Source: a virus. From it: DNA of 37,633 bases. This document shows, one piece after another, positions 2,980 through 27,668 of the stretch. Below the pieces are notes generated by a model. That model did not search any database. It was given only the letters and a program-made list of their open reading frames with translations, and was not told where the DNA came from. The stretch's first letter is position 1. Every line of letters starts with the position of its first letter. The DNA is taken from UHGV virus genome UHGV-0208093. One strand, 5' to 3'. The position numbers and the translations under genes are program-made.

Positions 2980-3053
2980 TGGACCATACAGGACTCGAAC
3001 CTGTGACCGAACGGTTATGAGCCGTTTGCTCTAACCAACTGAGCTAATGGTCC
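2980..3053 (-). tRNA. tRNA with anticodon CAT (elongator tRNA-Met or tRNA-Ile2/lysidine). No encoded CCA.
   Basis: Manual cloverleaf on the minus strand: acceptor GGACCAT/ATGGTCC, D-arm GCTC-AGTTGGTTA-GAGC, anticodon stem AACGG/CCGTT with loop CTCATAA, T-arm ACAGG-TTCGAGT-CCTGT, discriminator A. G1-C72 and a non-GGG anticodon stem argue against an initiator. Confidence 0.85.
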
Positions 3054-17219: not shown

Positions 17220-17545
17220 TATTTAATACCCGCTCCTTTCAAAAAGGCACGTTCCCACGAATTCATATAAGCACCTTTTGCTTTTAAATCCCACCGTGGT
17301 CCAGTCCCAGGCGTAGTATATTTTTTTCCATTTAGATAAAATTGGCGTTTCGCATATTTTGTACCATAAATAATCTTTTCACCTTCACTTGATAAATGAG
17401 CGCTTTGCCTTAAACTATTATTTTTTCGTGGTACAAATTGATTCATATCTGCCATCGCTTGATTACCAAGCGCATATCTGCCTCGTCTCATTGCCTCAGG
17501 GCTTACTTTGGTTCTTACACCGCTTAAATTCACCTTAATCCCCAT
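17219..17545 (-). CDS. Head-tail joining protein (HK97 gp10-like).
   Basis: 108 aa, position and size. Confidence 0.4.
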   Translation of the reverse strand: MGIKVNLSGVRTKVSPEAMRRGRYALGNQAMADMNQFVPRKNNSLRQSAHLSSEGEKIIYGTKYAKRQFYLNGKKYTTPGTGPRWDLKAKGAYMNSWERAFLKGAGIK

Positions 17546-23138: not shown

Positions 23139-24428
23139 CTAGGCGATATAGGTTTTATAAAAGTAATTATTACCATACCTTGCTTCATCAAGTGCATGAT
23201 TATATTTATCTACGGGCAATCCATTATCATTTCTCACATACATAGAGATTTCTTTTTCAAAATTATAGTGGTCAAATTCTTCTCCACATTCTAAAACTAT
23301 AAATTGGCCACTTATCATGGTGTTTTGTAGTCGTTCTATTCCAACCTCTATCTTTAAACCATTACTTGAAACTTTATCGGAGCTATTGTTATCAGCTTTA
23401 TCTGTAATAATCCCTATTAAGTCAAGCTCAGAACGTAACGTTTTACAGGCAGGATCGACAAAGAAATAATTCCAGTGTGGCAAATGGTTCCATTTTGTAT
23501 AACACCACTCAACAAACTGTTTAATCTCTTTTGCATAAATTGACATCGCTTTTGTTTCTCCCGTATCCGTTCCGCTATGATAGTAGTTTGCTAAACGATA
23601 CAGATAAAATTTCCCAGCATAGAAGGTGACAACCCAAAATGCACAGGTAGTTGCATCAGCTTGGCCACCATCAGCAGTAAAAAACGTTTCAATGATGTTT
23701 CCTTTTATTTCGGTTGCCTTGTTGTTCTTACCGAACATCGAGTAAATAACACCTTGTGGTAGCACTCTATGACCATACCAGTCACGTTCTAAAAGATATT
23801 CGCTACTTGATAACTCATCGTATAACTGCTGCTTTCTTGATTCACTTAAGATTGGATTATCATCTGGTGTCCAATGACGAAATAAAAAACGTCCTGATTT
23901 CTCAAAACGTTCTAACAATTCTAAATTAGGGTGATTCGGTGCTGGCGGATTCTGTTCGCCTAAATGATAGCGCCATTCTGCAGCAAAAGTACGTCTAAAG
24001 CACTCATTAATGAAATCTTTATGCAGCAAGTTAAATTCTAAGAAAGTAACTGAGCCTAACGACATACCCGTAATAGCACCAACCGAATTGATTTTGCCGC
24101 CGCCTTTGTAATAAATCTTTTTTTCTCCGTTAGGTGCATATAAAAGCAAATGGTCCCCATGCTCATCATGTCGAATATCTGAAACACCATCAAAGATATG
24201 CATTAAGCCTAAACCGTCACCGTCCATAAACATTCGGAAAGCTTGTTCTTGATTATAAGCAGTCACAAGATGGTTCTGGTCTGGTGAGCGTAAATAGAAG
24301 TCTGCCATTTTAAATATATCACTGGTGGTTTTTCCGCTACGAGGAGTACCTTCGTTTAATTCAAAGGTCACTTTGCTTGTGTTGAAATTAATATTCGCTG
24401 CTTGCTTATCACTAAAATTAATTGTCAT
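23139..24428 (-). CDS. terL: Terminase large subunit.
   Basis: Walker A NEGTPRSGKTT near the N-terminus. 429 aa. Overlaps the terS end. Confidence 0.9.
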   Translation of the reverse strand: MTINFSDKQAANINFNTSKVTFELNEGTPRSGKTTSDIFKMADFYLRSPDQNHLVTAYNQEQAFRMFMDGDGLGLMHIFDGVSDIRHDEHGDHLLLYAPNGEKKIYYKGGGKINSVGAITGMSLGSVTFLEFNLLHKDFINECFRRTFAAEWRYHLGEQNPPAPNHPNLELLERFEKSGRFLFRHWTPDDNPILSESRKQQLYDELSSSEYLLERDWYGHRVLPQGVIYSMFGKNNKATEIKGNIIETFFTADGGQADATTCAFWVVTFYAGKFYLYRLANYYHSGTDTGETKAMSIYAKEIKQFVEWCYTKWNHLPHWNYFFVDPACKTLRSELDLIGIITDKADNNSSDKVSSNGLKIEVGIERLQNTMISGQFIVLECGEEFDHYNFEKEISMYVRNDNGLPVDKYNHALDEARYGNNYFYKTYIA

Positions 24429-25182
24429 TGTTCACACCTCGTGATTTAACGTTGAGCAAAGCTTCTAACAATTCGTTCGCTTTGCCTCCAGCAGTTAACT
24501 TATCGGCCTGATTCGTAAGTATTTTCGCTTCTGCTTGTGTTTTTTCCATCTTCGCAGTTATCAAGCTTAATTTTGCTCTTCGTTCATCGGCTTCGTCTGC
24601 GATAGCTACAAATTGTTTAATTAAATTTGATAGTGTTCCCATTGCTCGAGATTGGGCGGCTAAAAAGTTCGCTTGTTTATCCCACGCGTATTGAACTTGC
24701 ATAGTAGAACTGCTTCCACTTTCGCCAGATGACCAACCCGACTCCTCTTTTGAGATATCTCCGACATCATTGACGTACATAATCTGTTGTGATCGGATAA
24801 TGGCTGTATATTGAATCATAATGTTATTCCAAAGAATATCTGCCGGTTCTGATTGGGAAACGGTCTCCATTATTTCTATTGTCTCTTCCGGCATCCACTT
24901 AGCAAAAATTCCGTGTTTAACTGCGTTCTTATTCCCCTTAGGGGGCGAACCGCCTTTATTCCCTTGGGCATTTTTATTGCCTTTAAGCGTATCGTAACGT
25001 TCCGTTTCAATCGGAGCGCTCCGTTTCATTGTAGTGTCCCACTTATCTTGAGATTTCCATTTTCTAATAGTGGAATCTGTAACACCTAATTCAATTGCGA
25101 TATCTTTTAATTTCTTTGTTCCTTCAGATTCTAACCAAAGATGTTTTGCCTTTTCTCTATTTGGATTTCTAGCTCTAGACAT
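24418..25182 (-). CDS. terS: Terminase small subunit with an N-terminal HTH.
   Basis: HTH LKDIAIELGVTDSTIRKWKS. Gly/Lys-rich linker. Upstream of terL. Confidence 0.8.
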   Translation of the reverse strand: MSRARNPNREKAKHLWLESEGTKKLKDIAIELGVTDSTIRKWKSQDKWDTTMKRSAPIETERYDTLKGNKNAQGNKGGSPPKGNKNAVKHGIFAKWMPEETIEIMETVSQSEPADILWNNIMIQYTAIIRSQQIMYVNDVGDISKEESGWSSGESGSSSTMQVQYAWDKQANFLAAQSRAMGTLSNLIKQFVAIADEADERRAKLSLITAKMEKTQAEAKILTNQADKLTAGGKANELLEALLNVKSRGVNNDN

Positions 25183-25222: not shown

Positions 25223-25447
25223 TCATCTGTATTTACTTATATTCTCTTGTACATGCTTGTCATTCCAACACCCATGACCGCAATATAGCAACTTGCAATA
25301 GTCAATTTCTTGTGGTGTAGCTTCTCGTGTCATCTCAATGATGGAATAGTCTTTCTTAATCTGCAACGACATTACTACCCGTTTATGTTGGTTTTTCATG
25401 GGTTTCGGATAATGGTGGTTCAGAGATATGTACCAATAATTATCCAT
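25223..25447 (-). CDS. Small Cys/His-containing protein (74 aa). First gene of the late operon. Function unknown.
   Basis: SD GGAGGG upstream. C-x4-C-x-H-x-C cluster (CKLLYCGHGCWNDKH). Confidence 0.4.
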   Translation of the reverse strand: MDNYWYISLNHHYPKPMKNQHKRVVMSLQIKKDYSIIEMTREATPQEIDYCKLLYCGHGCWNDKHVQENISKYR

Positions 25448-25528
25448 CCTTCATTCCCTCCAAACAAAAAAAGAAGCCATCAAGGCAATCTCTTTTATTC
25501 TTCATTCTTATTTGTTATAATTTTATTA

Positions 25529-25637
25529 GGTAGCAACTCCTTTTATTTTTAATCAACACCTTATGTAATTCATAATTCAATGAAAAGACACATAATTTGC
25601 TACCTAACCGCTAGTATGTCACCACTAGCGGTTTTTA
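25529..25637 (+). ncRNA. Predicted small RNA 1 of a 4-member paralogous array.
   Basis: Extended -10 TGtTATAAT at 25513..25521. 5' AGGUAGC pairs with GCUACCU at 25599..25605. CUCCUUU anti-SD-like motif at the 5' end. Terminator CCGCTAGT/ACTAGCGG plus T5 at 25608..25636. Confidence 0.6.
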
Positions 25638-25685
25638 TATGCATCAGACAAGACAATTAATGAATGATTTGCTATAATTTATTTA

Positions 25686-25785
25686 CGGGTAGCGACATAC
25701 CTTAGAAAATTTCTTGCACATGAAATTCCTCATATCGTACTAGCTACCTAACCACCCATGATTAATTTCACTGGTGGTTTTTTTG
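25686..25785 (+). ncRNA. Predicted small RNA 2 of the array.
   Basis: Extended -10 TGcTATAAT at 25670..25678. 5' GGGUAGC pairs with GCUACCU near 25743..25749. ACCUU motif. Terminator hairpin CCACC/GGTGG plus T7 ending near 25784. Confidence 0.55.
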
Positions 25786-25899
25786 TTGTTCAGTAAACAT
25801 AGTTACTAACTCATCATCTGAAGCTCGATTGCAATTAATGTAAAAAAAACAAACACATAAATGTTTTACAATTTTTTTAATATTTGTTAGAATTTTTAC

Positions 25900-26007
25900 A
25901 GGCAGGAATTCCTTCTTGATGAATTTAGATTTTGCGATTTAAAATTCTATCAACAAGTCTTACTATAACTGCCTATCCGCTAATTTTCCGATATTAGCGG
26001 TTTTTTA
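25900..26007 (+). ncRNA. Predicted small RNA 3 of the array. One U:A pair is replaced by C:G relative to its paralogs, which preserves the closing stem.
   Basis: Extended -10 TGtTAGAAT at 25885..25893. 5' AGGCAG pairs with CUGCCU at 25969..25974. UUCCUU motif. Terminator CCGCTAAT/ATTAGCGG plus T6 at 25977..26006. Confidence 0.6.
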
Positions 26008-26109
26008 CATACTAAAAGAGACATTCTTAATTAATTTTATGTACTAAATATGTCATTTCTTACATAAATTGGATAATGTCTATCACTATTAATTTGCTAT
26101 AATGCTTTT

Positions 26110-26220
26110 GGGTAGCAACTCCTTAAATGCTGAAACAGTTATTTACACCTAGAAAACCCATCTTTTTGTAATATAGTCTGCTACCTATCCACTAGATTCC
26201 ATAGTCTAGTGGTTTTTTTA
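26110..26220 (+). ncRNA. Predicted small RNA 4 of the array.
   Basis: Extended -10 TGcTATAAT at 26095..26103. 5' GGGUAGCAACUCCUU. 3' GCUACCU at 26180..26186. Terminator CCACTAGA/TCTAGTGG plus T7 at 26189..26219. Confidence 0.6.
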
Positions 26221-26225
26221 CGTAT

Positions 26226-26253
26226 AAAAAAAGACTGCACGGTGAAAGTGCAG
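26226..26253 (-). terminator. Minus-strand intrinsic terminator (CTGCAC...GTGCAG, then TC and U7). It ends transcription from the tRNA-Asn/ArpU side before the sRNA array.
   Basis: 6-bp GC-rich stem with a 7-nt loop, followed by a 7-nt T-run on the minus strand. Confidence 0.6.
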
Positions 26254-26351
26254 CCTTAGATAGGAAGGAAAATCTTAACCGTCATCTGATCGTAAAGGTA
26301 GTTACATTTGACTTATTGACGATTTTTTTATTTAAGTAGCATAGCTACTTA

Positions 26352-26424
26352 CTGGAATAACGAGACTCGAACTCATGATCCTACGATTAACAGTCGTATG
26401 CTCTACCAACTGAGCTATATTCCA
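26352..26424 (-). tRNA. tRNA-Asn (anticodon GTT). No encoded CCA.
   Basis: Manual cloverleaf on the minus strand: acceptor TGGAATA/TATTCCA, D-arm GCTC-AGTTGGTA-GAGC, anticodon stem TACGA/TCGTA with loop CTGTTAA, T-arm ATGAG-TTCGAGT-CTCGT, discriminator G. Confidence 0.85.
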
Positions 26425-26490: not shown

Positions 26491-26628
26491 ATGACTTATT
26501 CTACAGGTGAAAAGCCAGGCAAAGGCACCTATACTTGTACTAATTGCGGTCAGCAAGTTGTATTAGATGACAAAACAGATACACTGCCGCCATGTCCTAG
26601 ATGTGATAATACAAAGTATAGAAAATAA
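26491..26628 (+). CDS. 45-aa zinc-ribbon micro-protein (CxxC-x17-CxxC), MTYSTGEKPGKGTYTCTNCGQQVVLDDKTDTLPPCPRCDNTKYRK. Not in the ORF track because it is under 60 aa.
   Basis: Strong SD AAGGAGG 7 nt upstream. Candidate promoter TTGTTA-16-TATACT at 26443..26470. A terminator follows immediately. It is on the opposite strand to the flanking phage genes. Confidence 0.6.
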   Translation: MTYSTGEKPGKGTYTCTNCGQQVVLDDKTDTLPPCPRCDNTKYRK

Positions 26629-26636
26629 TTATTTAT

Positions 26637-26666
26637 AAGCAGTCTTTTAACGGACTGCTTATTTTA
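26637..26666. terminator. Bidirectional terminator between the convergent zinc-ribbon ORF and the 26664..26927 gene (AAGCAGTC...GACTGCTT, then ATTTTA).
   Basis: Perfect 8-bp stem. T-rich on the plus strand and A/T-rich on the minus strand. Confidence 0.6.
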
Positions 26667-26927
26667 TATTAATTTACGAAGTGTTTTACCTTCATCATTT
26701 AAGAGCCATACTGCAACAATTTTAAAATCTTCGTAATATGGCAGGTTAATTGCAGTTGTTTGCTCCTTACCAAATGTAATGATAATCGGGTTACTCATGT
26801 TAAAAACTTTAACTGCATTACTATCACAAGAAGTCCCTGAAACCCCTCCGATATAGTCCACTAAAAGTTTCGCTGCTTCTTTACCTTCTAATTCTTTTTT
26901 ATTAAACTTATCAATTTGCAATAACAT
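26664..26927 (-). CDS. Hypothetical protein. The likely start is the ATG at 26927 (MLLQIDKFNKK...), 87 aa; the track ORF runs to 26993.
   Basis: SD GAAAGGAAG upstream of 26927. No recognisable motifs. Confidence 0.45.
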   Translation of the reverse strand: MLLQIDKFNKKELEGKEAAKLLVDYIGGVSGTSCDSNAVKVFNMSNPIIITFGKEQTTAINLPYYEDFKIVAVWLLNDEGKTLRKLI

Positions 26928-27200
26928 ATAAATCTTCCTTTCTGTCTGTCTTTTTTTGCATATGCTAGCAATCGCCAAATATATCCCTTGCAAACTTGTA
27001 GAAAAAAGAGGAGGTTATTCACCTCACTTCATTTTATTGAGAACGTATGTCTGCAAGTGACCATCGAAAGTCAAATCAAACGGTGACTAAACCAGAAAGT
27101 GTTGTGTAATGTGTCCATTTCTTTGACTTTCGATGTTACTATATTAGCACTCAAATTCGTATAAAAACCGCCAACTTTCCGCCAAAAAACCGCCAAAATT

Positions 27201-27668
27201 TTATTTATAGGCAATTATTTTTCCATTGCGGTAAGCTTCTGCGAATTCAATCAAAGCTTCTGATTTCATTCTTTGAATACTTCTTTCGGAATAGCCGACT
27301 TCTCTAGCAATCTTGTAATTAGAGTAATGGTCCTGCACACAGAAACTATAGTGCAAAATTTGTCTGCTAGTTAGGCTTAATGCCATAAGCCCAGATAAAA
27401 TTGCGTCTCTTTCTGCTTCTGCATCTGCTAATTGTACTAGCGCATCTTCTGCTTTGTTCCCATGACTTTGGCTTTTAGGCATATCTGTAATAATTGGTGA
27501 TTTTAAATCTATCAAAGAGCGACCAGCTATTCGCTCTAAACGTCTAAAATTCTTCAACACATTTCTGGCATTCGCTTTTGTTTGTCGAAAATCTACTTCT
27601 TTTAGCAATTGAATCAAGTGGAATCGCTCCTTTTGTGGTATAATAACTATGTCGAAAATATTTCTCAC
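27201..27668 (-). CDS. ArpU-family late-gene transcriptional activator (sigma-70 region-4-like).
   Basis: C-terminal HTH YKIAREVGYSERSIQRMKSEAL. Size 155 aa. Position upstream of the packaging module. Confidence 0.75.
   Translation of the reverse strand: MRNIFDIVIIPQKERFHLIQLLKEVDFRQTKANARNVLKNFRRLERIAGRSLIDLKSPIITDMPKSQSHGNKAEDALVQLADAEAERDAILSGLMALSLTSRQILHYSFCVQDHYSNYKIAREVGYSERSIQRMKSEALIEFAEAYRNGKIIAYK

What the first reader, a model, noticed from the sequence alone, without database searches (positions are those of the whole stretch)
25513..26220. Tandem array of four paralogous small structured RNA genes, each with an extended -10 promoter, an anti-SD-like CCUU motif, a closing stem and an intrinsic terminator
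Four units share one architecture on the plus strand, opposite to all flanking phage genes. Their 3' anchors sit near 25599, 25743, 25969 and 26180.

Each unit has a TGnTA(T/G)AAT promoter. A 5' segment (A/G)GGUAGC lies about 7 nt downstream. Directly after it comes a CUCCUU, ACCUU or UUCCUU motif that mimics the 16S anti-Shine-Dalgarno sequence. A variable 50-65 nt core follows. A 3' GCUACCU segment can pair with the 5' end. A (A/U)CC linker follows. Last comes a GC hairpin plus a U6-7 terminator.

Unit 3 carries AGGCAG...CUGCCU instead of GGUAGC...GCUACC. This is a compensatory U:A to C:G exchange that preserves the 5'/3' helix, a hallmark of selection on RNA structure. The terminator stems also differ between copies but stay complementary.

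Spacing is irregular (146, 227 and 210 bp), so this is not CRISPR. No conserved ORF spans the units; a 26-codon frame in unit 1 is not conserved in the other units.

The array sits between the ArpU region and the first late gene, diverging from the late operon. It could encode translational repressors that titrate SD sequences of phage or host mRNAs, lysogeny-expressed regulators, or an uncharacterised RNA-based system. I do not recognise it as a known family.
Basis: partly seen in the sequence, partly recalled or inferred. Interest (0 to 1): 0.85.

Follow-up and report, generated by a model that had tools for sequence, protein, structure and literature searches.

The report
Tandem prophage small-RNA genes, Enterococcus
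Four neighbouring genes in an Enterococcus faecalis prophage each encode a roughly 100-nucleotide structured RNA of an unannotated family that is common in these phages, whose relatives are transcribed in a lysogen, and that probably regulates gene expression by base pairing.

Summary
Window 25513-26219 (+) carries four separate units. Each has an extended -10 promoter, a 5'/3' closing helix, an exposed C/U-rich motif, a unit-specific core and an intrinsic terminator.

A covariance model built from 8 units finds only these four in the window (62-92 bits; next best E>1). It finds 111 matches in 68 of 80 related ArpU-type E. faecalis prophage loci, always on the strand opposite arpU and the late genes. 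Pairing is kept in 97-98% of cells. Compensatory changes and G-U pairs fit only the + strand.

Public dRNA-seq of strain V583 lists three 'orphan' start sites whose upstream sequences are identical to promoters of family members. One is among the stronger of the start sites I saw in that table. They are not in that paper's sRNA table. Rfam 15 has no matching family.

So these are real, expressed, undescribed sRNA genes. Function is not shown. The most likely mechanism is base pairing through the exposed anti-Shine-Dalgarno-like seed. The likeliest first target is the phage's own late transcript, which apparently must be transcribed antisense through them.

This is a new family within a known kind (prophage sibling sRNAs), of moderate interest.

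The parts
25513..25521 (+). U1 extended -10 promoter TGTTATAAT
   Evidence: Read. The same TGnTAnnnT box lies at -12/-13 in 27 of 31 distinct upstream contexts of family members.
25528..25638 (+). U1 sRNA (about 110 nt): P1 helix 25528-25536 with 25597-25605, CUCCUU 25537-25542, core, terminator 25606-25636
   Evidence: R1 89.7 bits, E 3e-15. MFE -29 kcal/mol, z -6.5. Near-identical orthologues in L008, L004 and L023.
25670..25678 (+). U2 promoter TGCTATAAT, with -35 AAGACA at 25650
   Evidence: 10 of 12 consensus matches, TG present.
25687..25786 (+). U2 sRNA (about 100 nt): P1 25687-25693 with 25743-25749, ACCUU 25699-25703, terminator 25750-25786
   Evidence: R1 62.6 bits, E 5e-10. z -4.7. 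Orthologues in L023, L004 and L114.
25885..25893 (+). U3 promoter TGTTAGAAT, with -35 TTTACA at 25865
25900..26006 (+). U3 sRNA (about 107 nt): P1 AGGCAG 25900-25905 with CUGCCU 25969-25974, UUCCUU 25909-25914, terminator 25977-26006
   Evidence: R1 92 bits. Orthologues in IME197, L011 and L105 keep the core nearly invariant while P1, promoter and terminator differ.
26095..26103 (+). U4 extended -10 promoter TGCTATAAT
26110..26219 (+). U4 sRNA (about 110 nt): P1 26110-26116 with 26180-26186, CUCCUU 26119-26124, terminator 26189-26219
   Evidence: R1 88.9 bits. z -3.4. Orthologues in L006 and L105.
26231..26257 (-). Intrinsic terminator of the tRNA-Asn transcript, back to back with the U4 terminator
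   Evidence: The same back-to-back arrangement is seen in L033.
26352..26424 (-). tRNA-Asn(GTT), co-oriented with the late genes and upstream of the array
27168..27196 (-). Three TTGGCGG direct repeats (ArpU boxes) directly after the arpU stop codon. The late promoter is expected just downstream, near 27140.
   Evidence: The same boxes in phiFL2A are required for ArpU-dependent terS expression (PMC3753634). A V583 start site lies right after identical boxes.
27201..27668 (-). arpU (late transcription activator)
   Evidence: TIGR01637, 131.5 bits. 95% DNA identity over the matched stretch that includes phiFL1A gp34.
25223..25447 (-). First late-side ORF (74 aa, phrog_1202, function unknown), divergent from U1. 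80 bp lie between its ATG and the predicted U1 start.
   Evidence: The same ORF lies 65-81 bp from the distal sRNA in 47 of 68 loci.
24418..25182 (-). Terminase small subunit
   Evidence: PF10668, E 7.5e-23. phrog_509.

Best explanation
The four units are independently transcribed genes, with housekeeping-sigma extended -10 promoters, for stable sRNAs of about 100-110 nt. They belong to a family carried in 1-4 copies by ArpU-type temperate phages of Enterococcus faecalis and, as shown for three homologues in V583, expressed from the prophage in the lysogen.

Each RNA has four parts. A 7-9 bp helix joins its 5' and 3' ends and would shield the 5' end. Directly 3' of that helix lies an exposed C/U-rich (anti-Shine-Dalgarno-like) stretch. 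A type-specific AU-rich core follows. An intrinsic terminator hairpin ends the RNA.

The most likely mode of action is RNA-RNA base pairing. The exposed CCUU-type seed, perhaps together with the core, would pair with ribosome-binding regions and block translation or trigger decay.

The genes lie antisense in what appears to be the only path from the ArpU-dependent late promoter (next to arpU) to the first late gene. The most probable first target is therefore the phage's own late transcript. Its leader would be fully complementary to the sRNAs, and convergent transcription would add interference. The effect would be to keep packaging and lysis genes silent in the lysogen, or to delay them after induction.

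Shown: gene anatomy, family membership, conserved pairing, strand, and start sites of homologues in a lysogen.

Inferred: that pairing is the mechanism, the identity of the targets, and the direction of the effect. My rough split is own late operon about 0.35, host or competitor mRNAs about 0.25, within a total of 0.6 for base pairing.
For: Family and specificity:
- R1 hits only the four units in the window.
- It gives 111 hits in 68 of 80 ArpU-anchored loci, all on the strand opposite arpU.
- It gives 129 hits in 79 pattern-anchored loci. There ArpU (46 of 46), the 74-aa ORF (55 of 55) and TerS (19 of 19) are always on the opposite strand.

Structure:
- 97.5% and 98.2% of cells are paired. 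8-9 pairs carry changes on both sides, and 0 of 500 shuffles reach that. Slid controls give 20-52%.
- G-U pairs, 12 distinct at pair 1, would be A-C on the other strand.

Promoter:
- TGnTAnnnT lies at -12/-13 in 27 of 31 distinct contexts.

Expression:
- The V583 dRNA-seq table lists orphan + strand start sites at 1949783, 1949936 (step height 10458) and 1950111.
- Their upstream sequences are identical to family promoters. The start sites fall within 2 nt of the first base of P1.

Seed:
- A CCU-containing motif lies within about 12 nt after P1 in 6 of 7 distinct 5' variants. It is predicted to be unpaired, p about 0.9.

Core:
- It is nearly invariant between lineages whose ends differ.

Antisense position:
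- The only ArpU boxes are at 27168-27196. A V583 start site follows identical boxes.
- The 65-81 bp between the sRNA start and the first late ATG is largely filled by the sRNA promoter. No sigma-70-like late-strand promoter was found there. No late-strand start site is listed there in V583.
- The phiFL2A 5' RACE end maps to a tRNA 3' end, which implies a long processed late leader.
Against: - No target was found. There is no extended complementarity of the cores to the rest of the window, to neighbouring RNAs in the loci beyond a same-strand control, or to 50,697 phage records.
- Duplex energies against start regions in the window show no outlier.
- An anti-SD seed is inherently unspecific.
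- Late transcription would have to read through at least three terminator-like hairpins. That requires antitermination, which is not shown.
- phiFL2A and 12 of 80 loci lack the sRNAs, so they are dispensable for the lytic programme.
- In phiFL1A- and V583-like loci an inserted gene with its own promoter separates the array from terS. That would bypass a gate.
- P1 is conserved in sequence as well as in pairing, which could indicate a protein-binding site instead.
Confidence: 0.6

Rival explanations
1. A pure transcriptional roadblock or insulator. What matters is the act of convergent transcription from strong promoters placed after the tRNA, ROOL or toxin genes and before the late operon. The RNA product itself would have no function.
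For: Orientation and boundary position are strict. Terminators are back to back with the upstream co-directional RNA genes. Cores vary and copy number is 1-4. One promoter is strong in the lysogen.
Against: The 5'/3' helix is maintained by compensatory changes, which shows selection on the RNA. The CCU motif is conserved and exposed. The core is conserved across lineages with different ends. A roadblock requires none of these.
Confidence: 0.1
2. A protein-binding RNA: a decoy, sponge or scaffold. The conserved helix (GGUAGC/GCUACC) plus terminator hairpin would be a protein handle and the variable core a cargo or guide. Possible roles are an anti-defence decoy or a partner of a phage protein such as the divergently encoded 74-aa phrog_1202 protein.
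For: P1 is conserved in sequence, not only in pairing; 39-44 of 45 distinct sequences keep the common pair at each position. Evolution is mosaic, with a conserved scaffold and swappable cores. Some cores carry repeated UAGCAAYC modules. The sRNAs co-occur with the phrog_1202 ORF: 53 loci have both and 1 has the ORF alone. A similar GGUAGC..GCUAC hairpin follows the phage tRNAs. The hot spot also holds ROOL RNA and tRNAs.
Against: No protein partner was identified. The phrog_1202 protein has no Pfam, NCBIfam or PADLOC hit, and its single-sequence model is unreliable. 15 loci have the sRNA without that ORF, and in some loci the ORF is truncated to 25 aa. The co-occurrence may be simple linkage.
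Confidence: 0.15
3. Antitoxin RNAs of a type I or type III toxin-antitoxin module.
For: The same hot spot in L053 and L040 holds a type I-like module: an rli28-like RNA carrying a 28-aa hydrophobic ORF, convergent with a RatA-like RNA. The sRNAs have constitutive promoters.
Against: No hydrophobic or conserved small ORF overlaps or adjoins the four units on either strand. There is no RatA or other antitoxin match in Rfam even at E<=10. The units are not short identical repeats in front of a toxin gene. Simple loci such as L033 contain only a tRNA, a terminator, the sRNA and the late gene.
Confidence: 0.03
4. DNA-level repeats: packaging (pac or cos) sites or regulator-binding sites, with no RNA product.
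For: The array lies directly upstream of the packaging genes. The IME197 record is linearised inside the -10 box of its first unit.
Against: Primary 5' ends map to the predicted starts in V583. Pairing is conserved through compensatory and G-U changes that are strand-specific. Every intact copy has a promoter and a terminator. The ArpU boxes are elsewhere.
Confidence: 0.02

Closest known systems
LhrC1-5 sibling sRNAs of Listeria monocytogenes (Rfam RF00616; own knowledge)
   Same: Several paralogous sRNA genes of about 100 nt sit in tandem, each with its own promoter and intrinsic terminator. They use C/U-rich single-stranded motifs that pair with Shine-Dalgarno regions, in a low-GC Gram-positive host.
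   Different: LhrC is chromosomal, not phage-borne, and is under LisRK control. It has three UCCC motifs in loops and no helix joining the 5' and 3' ends. There is no sequence or model similarity; Rfam gives no hit at E<=10.
csRNAs of streptococci and RoxS/RsaE of Bacillus and Staphylococcus (own knowledge)
   Same: Anti-SD-like C-rich seeds, and multicopy in the case of the csRNAs.
   Different: csRNAs depend on CiaR boxes, and none lies near the units. RoxS/RsaE use CCCC motifs. All of these are core-genome genes. Rfam gives no match.
Prophage-encoded sRNAs of enterobacteria (DicF, IsrK, AgvB/AsxR; own knowledge)
   Same: sRNA genes sit at conserved positions of lambdoid prophages, are expressed in the lysogen, and are often multicopy across prophages. 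IsrK controls late-gene antitermination.
   Different: They have different hosts, depend on Hfq (E. faecalis lacks Hfq, by my own knowledge), and have a different architecture. There is no homology.
Phage cis-antisense RNAs (lambda OOP and anti-Q, P22 Sar, P1/P7 c4; own knowledge)
   Same: Short, constitutively made RNAs are encoded opposite to a phage transcript that decides lytic gene expression.
   Different: Those RNAs overlap coding regions or immunity genes. Here the overlap would be with a late leader, is inferred rather than shown, and involves up to four different tandem genes with a shared scaffold.
ROOL RNA, phage tRNAs and the rli28/RatA-like module found in the same hot spot
   Same: They share the genomic niche, the arpU-terS gap.
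   Different: They lie on the opposite strand, co-oriented with the late genes, and are unrelated in sequence and structure. The sRNA family is the only element there that is transcribed against the late direction, apart from the RatA-like RNA in L053.

Membership tests
Any Rfam 15 family | Covariance-model match at or above the family's gathering score | tested here: not met
   Only two tRNAs pass in the window. At E<=10 the region gives only sub-threshold, terminator-driven matches: Ref84 at 25.8 bits against a gathering score of 52, and NsiR1 and ncr1175. Related loci also show no family over the units.
LhrC-type sibling sRNAs | Tandem paralogous genes, each with its own promoter and terminator | tested here: met
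LhrC-type sibling sRNAs | Homology to LhrC (RF00616), with three UCCC motifs in loops or a single strand | tested here: not met
   No Rfam match. The units carry one, sometimes two, YCCU motifs located next to a closing helix.
csRNA (CiaR regulon) | CiaR direct repeat TTTAAG-N5-WTTAAG upstream of the -10 box | tested here: not met
   The only window match lies at 17523, far from the units, and is at chance level.
Trans-acting anti-SD sRNA (functional class) | A conserved, single-stranded C/U-rich seed | tested here: met
   The motif is present in 6 of 7 distinct 5' variants, with unpaired probability about 0.9.
Trans-acting anti-SD sRNA (functional class) | A demonstrable target ribosome-binding site with specific complementarity | tested here: inconclusive
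   No outlier among start regions in the window. The host genome was not available to the tools.
Cis-antisense phage RNA (functional class) | An opposite-strand transcript overlaps the gene | not testable with these tools
   This is inferred from the position of the ArpU boxes and the V583 late start site, and from the absence of a promoter or start site in the 65-81 bp gap. A minus-strand 5' end inside one V583 unit (1949984) is listed. Induced-state RNA-seq is needed.
Type I antitoxin (RatA-like) | An adjacent or overlapping small hydrophobic toxin ORF | tested here: not met
   No RatA match to the units.
Type III antitoxin (ToxI-like) or CRISPR array | Short near-identical direct repeats at a regular period | tested here: not met
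   Tandem Repeats Finder finds nothing. The units align at a mean column identity of 62-68%, counted over the whole units. Spacing is irregular. Each unit has its own promoter and terminator.
tRNA or tRNA-like | A cloverleaf recognised by ARAGORN or by Rfam tRNA | tested here: not met
   Searches find only the tRNA-Met and tRNA-Asn genes.

The most novel reading that the evidence does not exclude
The family could be a modular 'scaffold plus exchangeable core' RNA system. The conserved GGUAGC/GCUACC helix and terminator would form a handle for a protein, for instance the divergently encoded phrog_1202 protein or a host factor. The dozen or so core types would then act as interchangeable specificity modules, serving as guides or decoys in phage-phage or phage-defence conflict, rather than as ordinary anti-SD regulators.

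A related fringe reading rests on my recollection of the Firmicute 16S 3' end (..AGGUAGCCGUA..CACCUCCUUU). The 5' AGGUAGC-AACUCCUUU segment would mimic that end and act as a decoy for a ribosome-targeting nuclease.
Probability: 0.08. Interest if true: 0.85.

Novelty: new member of a known kind. Interest (0 to 1): 0.5.

Why it matters
E. faecalis is a major hospital pathogen, and its prophages shape its fitness and gene transfer. Its sRNA biology is poorly known, and by my own knowledge it lacks Hfq.

This family is abundant in E. faecalis prophages: 1-4 copies in 68 of 80 ArpU-type loci. At least one member is among the stronger of the start sites I saw in the V583 table. Yet the family is absent from genome annotations, from Rfam, and from the published sRNA list of the study that mapped its start sites.

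The genes sit exactly at the switch point between early and late phage genes. The same hot spot also houses tRNAs, ROOL RNA and a type I toxin-antitoxin module.

If the RNAs gate the late operon, they would add an RNA layer to ArpU/RinA-type late control, which governs packaging and hence transduction. If they act on host mRNAs, they would be a new lysogenic-conversion factor. Either reading can be tested directly with the coordinates and the model given here.

Tried and rejected
- Guide or antisense against other sequences. Exact complementarity of the four cores to the rest of the window is only 10-12 nt, at chance level. blastn of these cores and of ten other core types against 50,697 phage records at E<=10 found only the homologous units themselves. 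In-locus complementarity to late-strand RNAs is no better than a same-strand control.
- RNAduplex of the unit interiors against 60 start regions in the window gave no outlier.
- Pairing of the seed with the ribosome-binding site of the adjacent first late gene: I saw no co-variation between seed variants and neighbouring SD sequences (by eye).
- Coding potential: only short, non-conserved frames without an SD.
- Other genera: seven ArpU loci from other Enterococcus species and a Lacticaseibacillus gave no hit; the best was 17.9 bits at E 0.34. The plasmid collection gave only two E. faecalis records.
- Purifying selection from near-identical four-unit loci: these are over 99% identical, so the comparison was uninformative.
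- The 74-aa neighbour: no Pfam, NCBIfam or PADLOC hit. PDB gave only E about 0.4 to the eS31 zinc ribbon. The single-sequence AlphaFold model had pLDDT 55, so no fold search was attempted.
- Literature: nothing on these RNAs in Fouquier d'Herouel 2011, Shioya 2011, the main text of Innocenti 2015, or the Michaux 2022 Grad-seq paper. The Innocenti supplements were not available.
Full report
**What is in the sequence.** Window 25450-26260 contains four units on the + strand. Each begins with an extended -10 box:
- TGTTATAAT at 25513
- TGCTATAAT at 25670
- TGTTAGAAT at 25885
- TGCTATAAT at 26095

Two units also have a recognisable -35. About 7 nt downstream comes (A/G)GGUAGC, or AGGCAG in unit 3. 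Next comes a C/U-rich stretch (CUCCUU, ACCUU or UUCCUU), followed by an AU-rich core of 40-56 nt that differs between units. The complementary GCUACCU (CUGCCU in unit 3) follows, then a 2-3 nt linker, a GC-containing hairpin and a T-run.

The terminator scan finds 5 sites in 2 kb against 0.8 expected. Three of the five belong to units. Unit 2 has an interrupted stem and is missed.

Each unit, folded alone, closes its 5' and 3' ends into a helix and forms the terminator. Free energies lie 3.4-6.5 sd below shuffled controls.

The units are not simple repeats. Tandem Repeats Finder reports nothing. They align at only 62-68% mean column identity over the whole units, with the cores differing most. 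No conserved or hydrophobic ORF lies on either strand.

**It is a family.** The window is an Enterococcus faecalis temperate phage related to the phiFL phages. phiFL1A and IME197 each carry two such units at the same place. These include further helix variants, AGACAGC/GCUGUCU and GGGUAGC/GCUACCC.

A covariance model built from these 8 units (R1; 15 pairs, core left unstructured) hits only the four units in the 37.6 kb window. Scores are 62-92 bits, and the next best match has E>1.

- In 80 IMG/VR loci retrieved through the ArpU protein, not through the RNA, the model finds 111 matches in 68 loci, 1-4 per locus. All are on the strand opposite arpU and downstream of it.
- A second collection was retrieved through a DNA pattern of the 3' module. 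It gives 129 matches in 79 loci and overlaps partly with the first set.
- Wherever ArpU (46), the 74-aa ORF (55) or TerS (19) is present in that second set, it lies on the opposite strand.
- Together the two sets hold 66 distinct sequences. By eye I count roughly a dozen core types.
- Seven ArpU loci from other Enterococcus species and a Lacticaseibacillus give nothing significant.
- blastn against the phage and plasmid collections finds only E. faecalis records, with no annotated feature under any match.

**RNA, and which strand.** On the two model-fitted alignments, 97.5% and 98.2% of cells form standard pairs. 8 and 9 of the 15 pairs carry changes on both sides, and 0 of 500 column shuffles reach that. 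Sliding the 3' partners drops pairing to 20-52%.

These alignments lean towards the model, and the sequences are related. The weight therefore rests on the independent helix variants listed above, and on G-U pairs. Twelve distinct sequences have G-U at the first pair, which would be A-C mismatches on the opposite strand.

Of 31 distinct upstream contexts, 27 carry TGnTAnnnT at -12/-13. The other four are truncated or disrupted copies.

**Experimental support from public data.** Table S1 of Michaux et al. 2020 (PMC7724050) reports dRNA-seq of strain V583 and prints 50 nt upstream of each start site. Three 'orphan' + strand start sites lie between EF2020 and the ArpU gene EF2024 of a V583 prophage, which I take to be pp4 by locus-tag range, from my own knowledge. 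Their upstream sequences are identical to promoters of family members in my loci:

| Start site | Step height | Position relative to P1 |
|---|---|---|
| 1949783 | 840 | 2 nt before AGACAGC |
| 1949936 | 10458 | the A of AGGUAGC |
| 1950111 | 442 | the third base of AGGUAGC |

(one search compared). For scale, trigger factor in the same table has a step height of 9873.

None of the three appears in that paper's table of predicted sRNAs. The older E. faecalis sRNA surveys that I could read do not mention them. Rfam 15 has no family for them.

These data concern homologues in another prophage, not the four window units themselves. V583 has no start site with the window's own promoter sequences.

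**Context.**
- arpU is at 27201-27668 (-).
- Directly after its stop codon lie three TTGGCGG repeats, at 27168-27196. They are the only copies in the window.
- In phiFL2A the same repeats are required for ArpU binding and for ArpU-dependent terS expression (Quiles-Puchalt et al. 2013, PMC3753634).
- In V583 a start site (1952358, minus strand) lies just after identical repeats.
- The phiFL2A '5' RACE start', 118 bp before terS, falls at the 3' end of a tRNA-Arg gene about 650 bp downstream of the repeats. I read this as a processing site on a long late leader.

In the window the order on the minus strand is:
1. arpU
2. the ArpU boxes
3. a short leader with a terminator-like hairpin
4. an 87-aa ORF
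5. a bidirectional terminator shared with a + strand zinc-ribbon ORF
6. tRNA-Asn with its own promoter, a GUAGC hairpin and a terminator (26231-26257)
7. the four sRNA genes, convergent
8. the 74-aa ORF (phrog_1202)
9. terS and terL

In simple loci such as L033 the order is arpU, boxes, leader, tRNA, terminator, one convergent sRNA, 65 bp, first late gene.

The gap between the sRNA start and the late ATG is 65-81 bp in the 47 loci where the phrog_1202-type ORF follows directly, and about the same, by eye, in loci where a different gene follows. It is largely occupied by the sRNA promoter. I found no sigma-70-like late-strand promoter there, and V583 lists no late-strand start site there.

The inference, which is not shown, is that late transcription starts next to arpU and reaches the late genes by reading through terminators and, in antisense, through the sRNA genes.

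**Mechanism.** The features to explain are these:
- strict position and orientation
- a constitutive promoter, active in the V583 lysogen for three homologues
- a helix that sequesters the 5' end and is kept by compensation
- a CCU-containing motif immediately after that helix, present in 6 of 7 distinct 5' variants and predicted unpaired with p about 0.9 in nearly all members
- cores that differ between types but are nearly invariant within a type, even where promoter, helix and terminator have diverged
- 1-4 different types in tandem

Base pairing explains most of these. An exposed anti-SD-like seed is the standard device of Gram-positive sRNAs. The end-to-end helix and terminator would give a stable RNA. 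A selected core suggests added specificity. I put 0.6 on base pairing as the mechanism.

Because of the antisense position, I consider the phage's own late transcript the likeliest first target, at about 0.35. Host or competing-phage mRNAs are next, at about 0.25.

Against any specific claim: no target emerged from the window, from neighbouring RNAs or from the phage database. The host genome could not be searched. The RNAs are dispensable, being absent from phiFL2A and from 12 of 80 loci. In phiFL1A- and V583-like phages an inserted gene with its own promoter lies between the array and terS.

Rival readings:
- A pure transcriptional roadblock (0.1) does not explain selection on the RNA.
- A protein-binding scaffold or decoy (0.15) fits the sequence conservation of the helix and the mosaic evolution, but has no identified partner.
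- An antitoxin (0.03) is contradicted by the anatomy.
- A DNA site (0.02) is contradicted by the start-site data.

**Comparison with known systems.**
- Functionally the closest are sibling sRNAs with C/U-rich seeds: LhrC1-5, the csRNAs and RoxS/RsaE.
- Ecologically the closest are prophage sRNAs such as DicF, IsrK and AgvB/AsxR.
- Positionally the closest are phage antisense RNAs such as OOP, Sar, c4 and anti-Q.
- It is a member of none of these. There is no Rfam match, no CiaR box, no toxin ORF and no regular repeats.
- It is a new family within a known kind.

**Verdict.** The function is open. Interest is moderate, 0.5. The family is abundant, expressed and unannotated, in a clinically important species. 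It sits at the early/late switch inside an RNA-rich hot spot. But prophage sRNAs and anti-SD sibling sRNAs are established concepts, and no mechanism is demonstrated here.

Noticed in passing
L046 4840-5418 (+); L053 4320-4629; L040 5204-5383; tRNAs in L033, L005, L012, L083 and L002: The arpU-terS gap of these phages is an RNA-gene hot spot. Different relatives carry a ROOL RNA (263 bits), tRNA-Trp, Glu, Arg or Asn, and an rli28-like RNA convergent with a RatA-like RNA. The rli28-like RNA contains a 28-aa hydrophobic ORF (MSVFEALSLMIAFATLVLLIIDHTNTKK), so the pair is probably a type I toxin-antitoxin module.
   Followed up: partly
window 27168-27196 (-); L083 about 3036: Three TTGGCGG ArpU boxes follow the arpU stop codon. 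A V583 dRNA-seq start site lies just after identical boxes. The published phiFL2A late 'start', 118 bp before terS, coincides with the 3' end of a tRNA-Arg about 650 bp downstream of the boxes. It is therefore probably a processing site, and the late leader is long.
   Followed up: partly
window about 27000-27030 (-), 26635-26662 (both strands), 26231-26257 (-): Three terminator-like hairpins lie between the predicted late promoter and the late genes. The first (GAGGUgaauaACCUC plus a U-run) is conserved in phiFL2A and L014. Late transcription may therefore need antitermination, and no factor for this is known to me.
   Followed up: no
window 26333-26352 (-); L033 4920-4939; L083 3019-3037: A short hairpin (A/G)GUAGC-NNN-GCUACU follows the 3' end of the phage tRNA in every locus I inspected, including phiFL2A, which lacks the sRNAs. 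Its 5' arm is identical or nearly identical to the 5' strand of the sRNA closing helix (AGGUAGCA). Shared processing or recognition is possible but untested.
   Followed up: no
window 25223-25447 (-): This 74-aa ORF (phrog_1202, function unknown; C-terminal CxxxxCxxC and His residues) is the first late-side gene in most sRNA-bearing loci. It is cut to 25 aa plus a terminator in phiFL1A- and V583-like loci, where another gene is inserted. PDB gives only a weak, non-significant resemblance to the eS31 zinc ribbon (E 0.4). The AlphaFold single-sequence model is unreliable.
   Followed up: partly
L014 4690-5275; L083 3110-3700: An apparently non-coding stretch of about 600 nt, richer in GC, lies between the late leader and the tRNA in phiFL2A-like loci. 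This is the position where ROOL sits in L046. It has no Rfam match at E<=1, and its MFE z-score is only -0.6.
   Followed up: partly
V583 chromosome 1949984 (-), from PMC7724050 Table S1: A TEX-enriched minus-strand 5' end (step height 788) maps inside the most highly expressed family member. It is either an antisense start or a cleavage product of a sense-antisense duplex.
   Followed up: no
L001 1-14 and L186 1-40 (IME197 record ends): The IME197 GenBank record is linearised inside the -10 box of its first sRNA unit. I could not determine whether this reflects a physical genome end or an arbitrary choice.
   Followed up: no
window 26491-26628 (+): A 45-aa zinc-ribbon ORF (PF07295, DUF1451-like; E 1.5e-11) lies on the + strand. 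It has a strong SD and shares a bidirectional terminator with the 87-aa ORF at 26664-26927 (-).
   Followed up: no
window 2980-3053 (-): A tRNA-Met gene lies where gene orientation changes from + to - near the left end of the window. It may mark the prophage boundary or attachment site.
   Followed up: no
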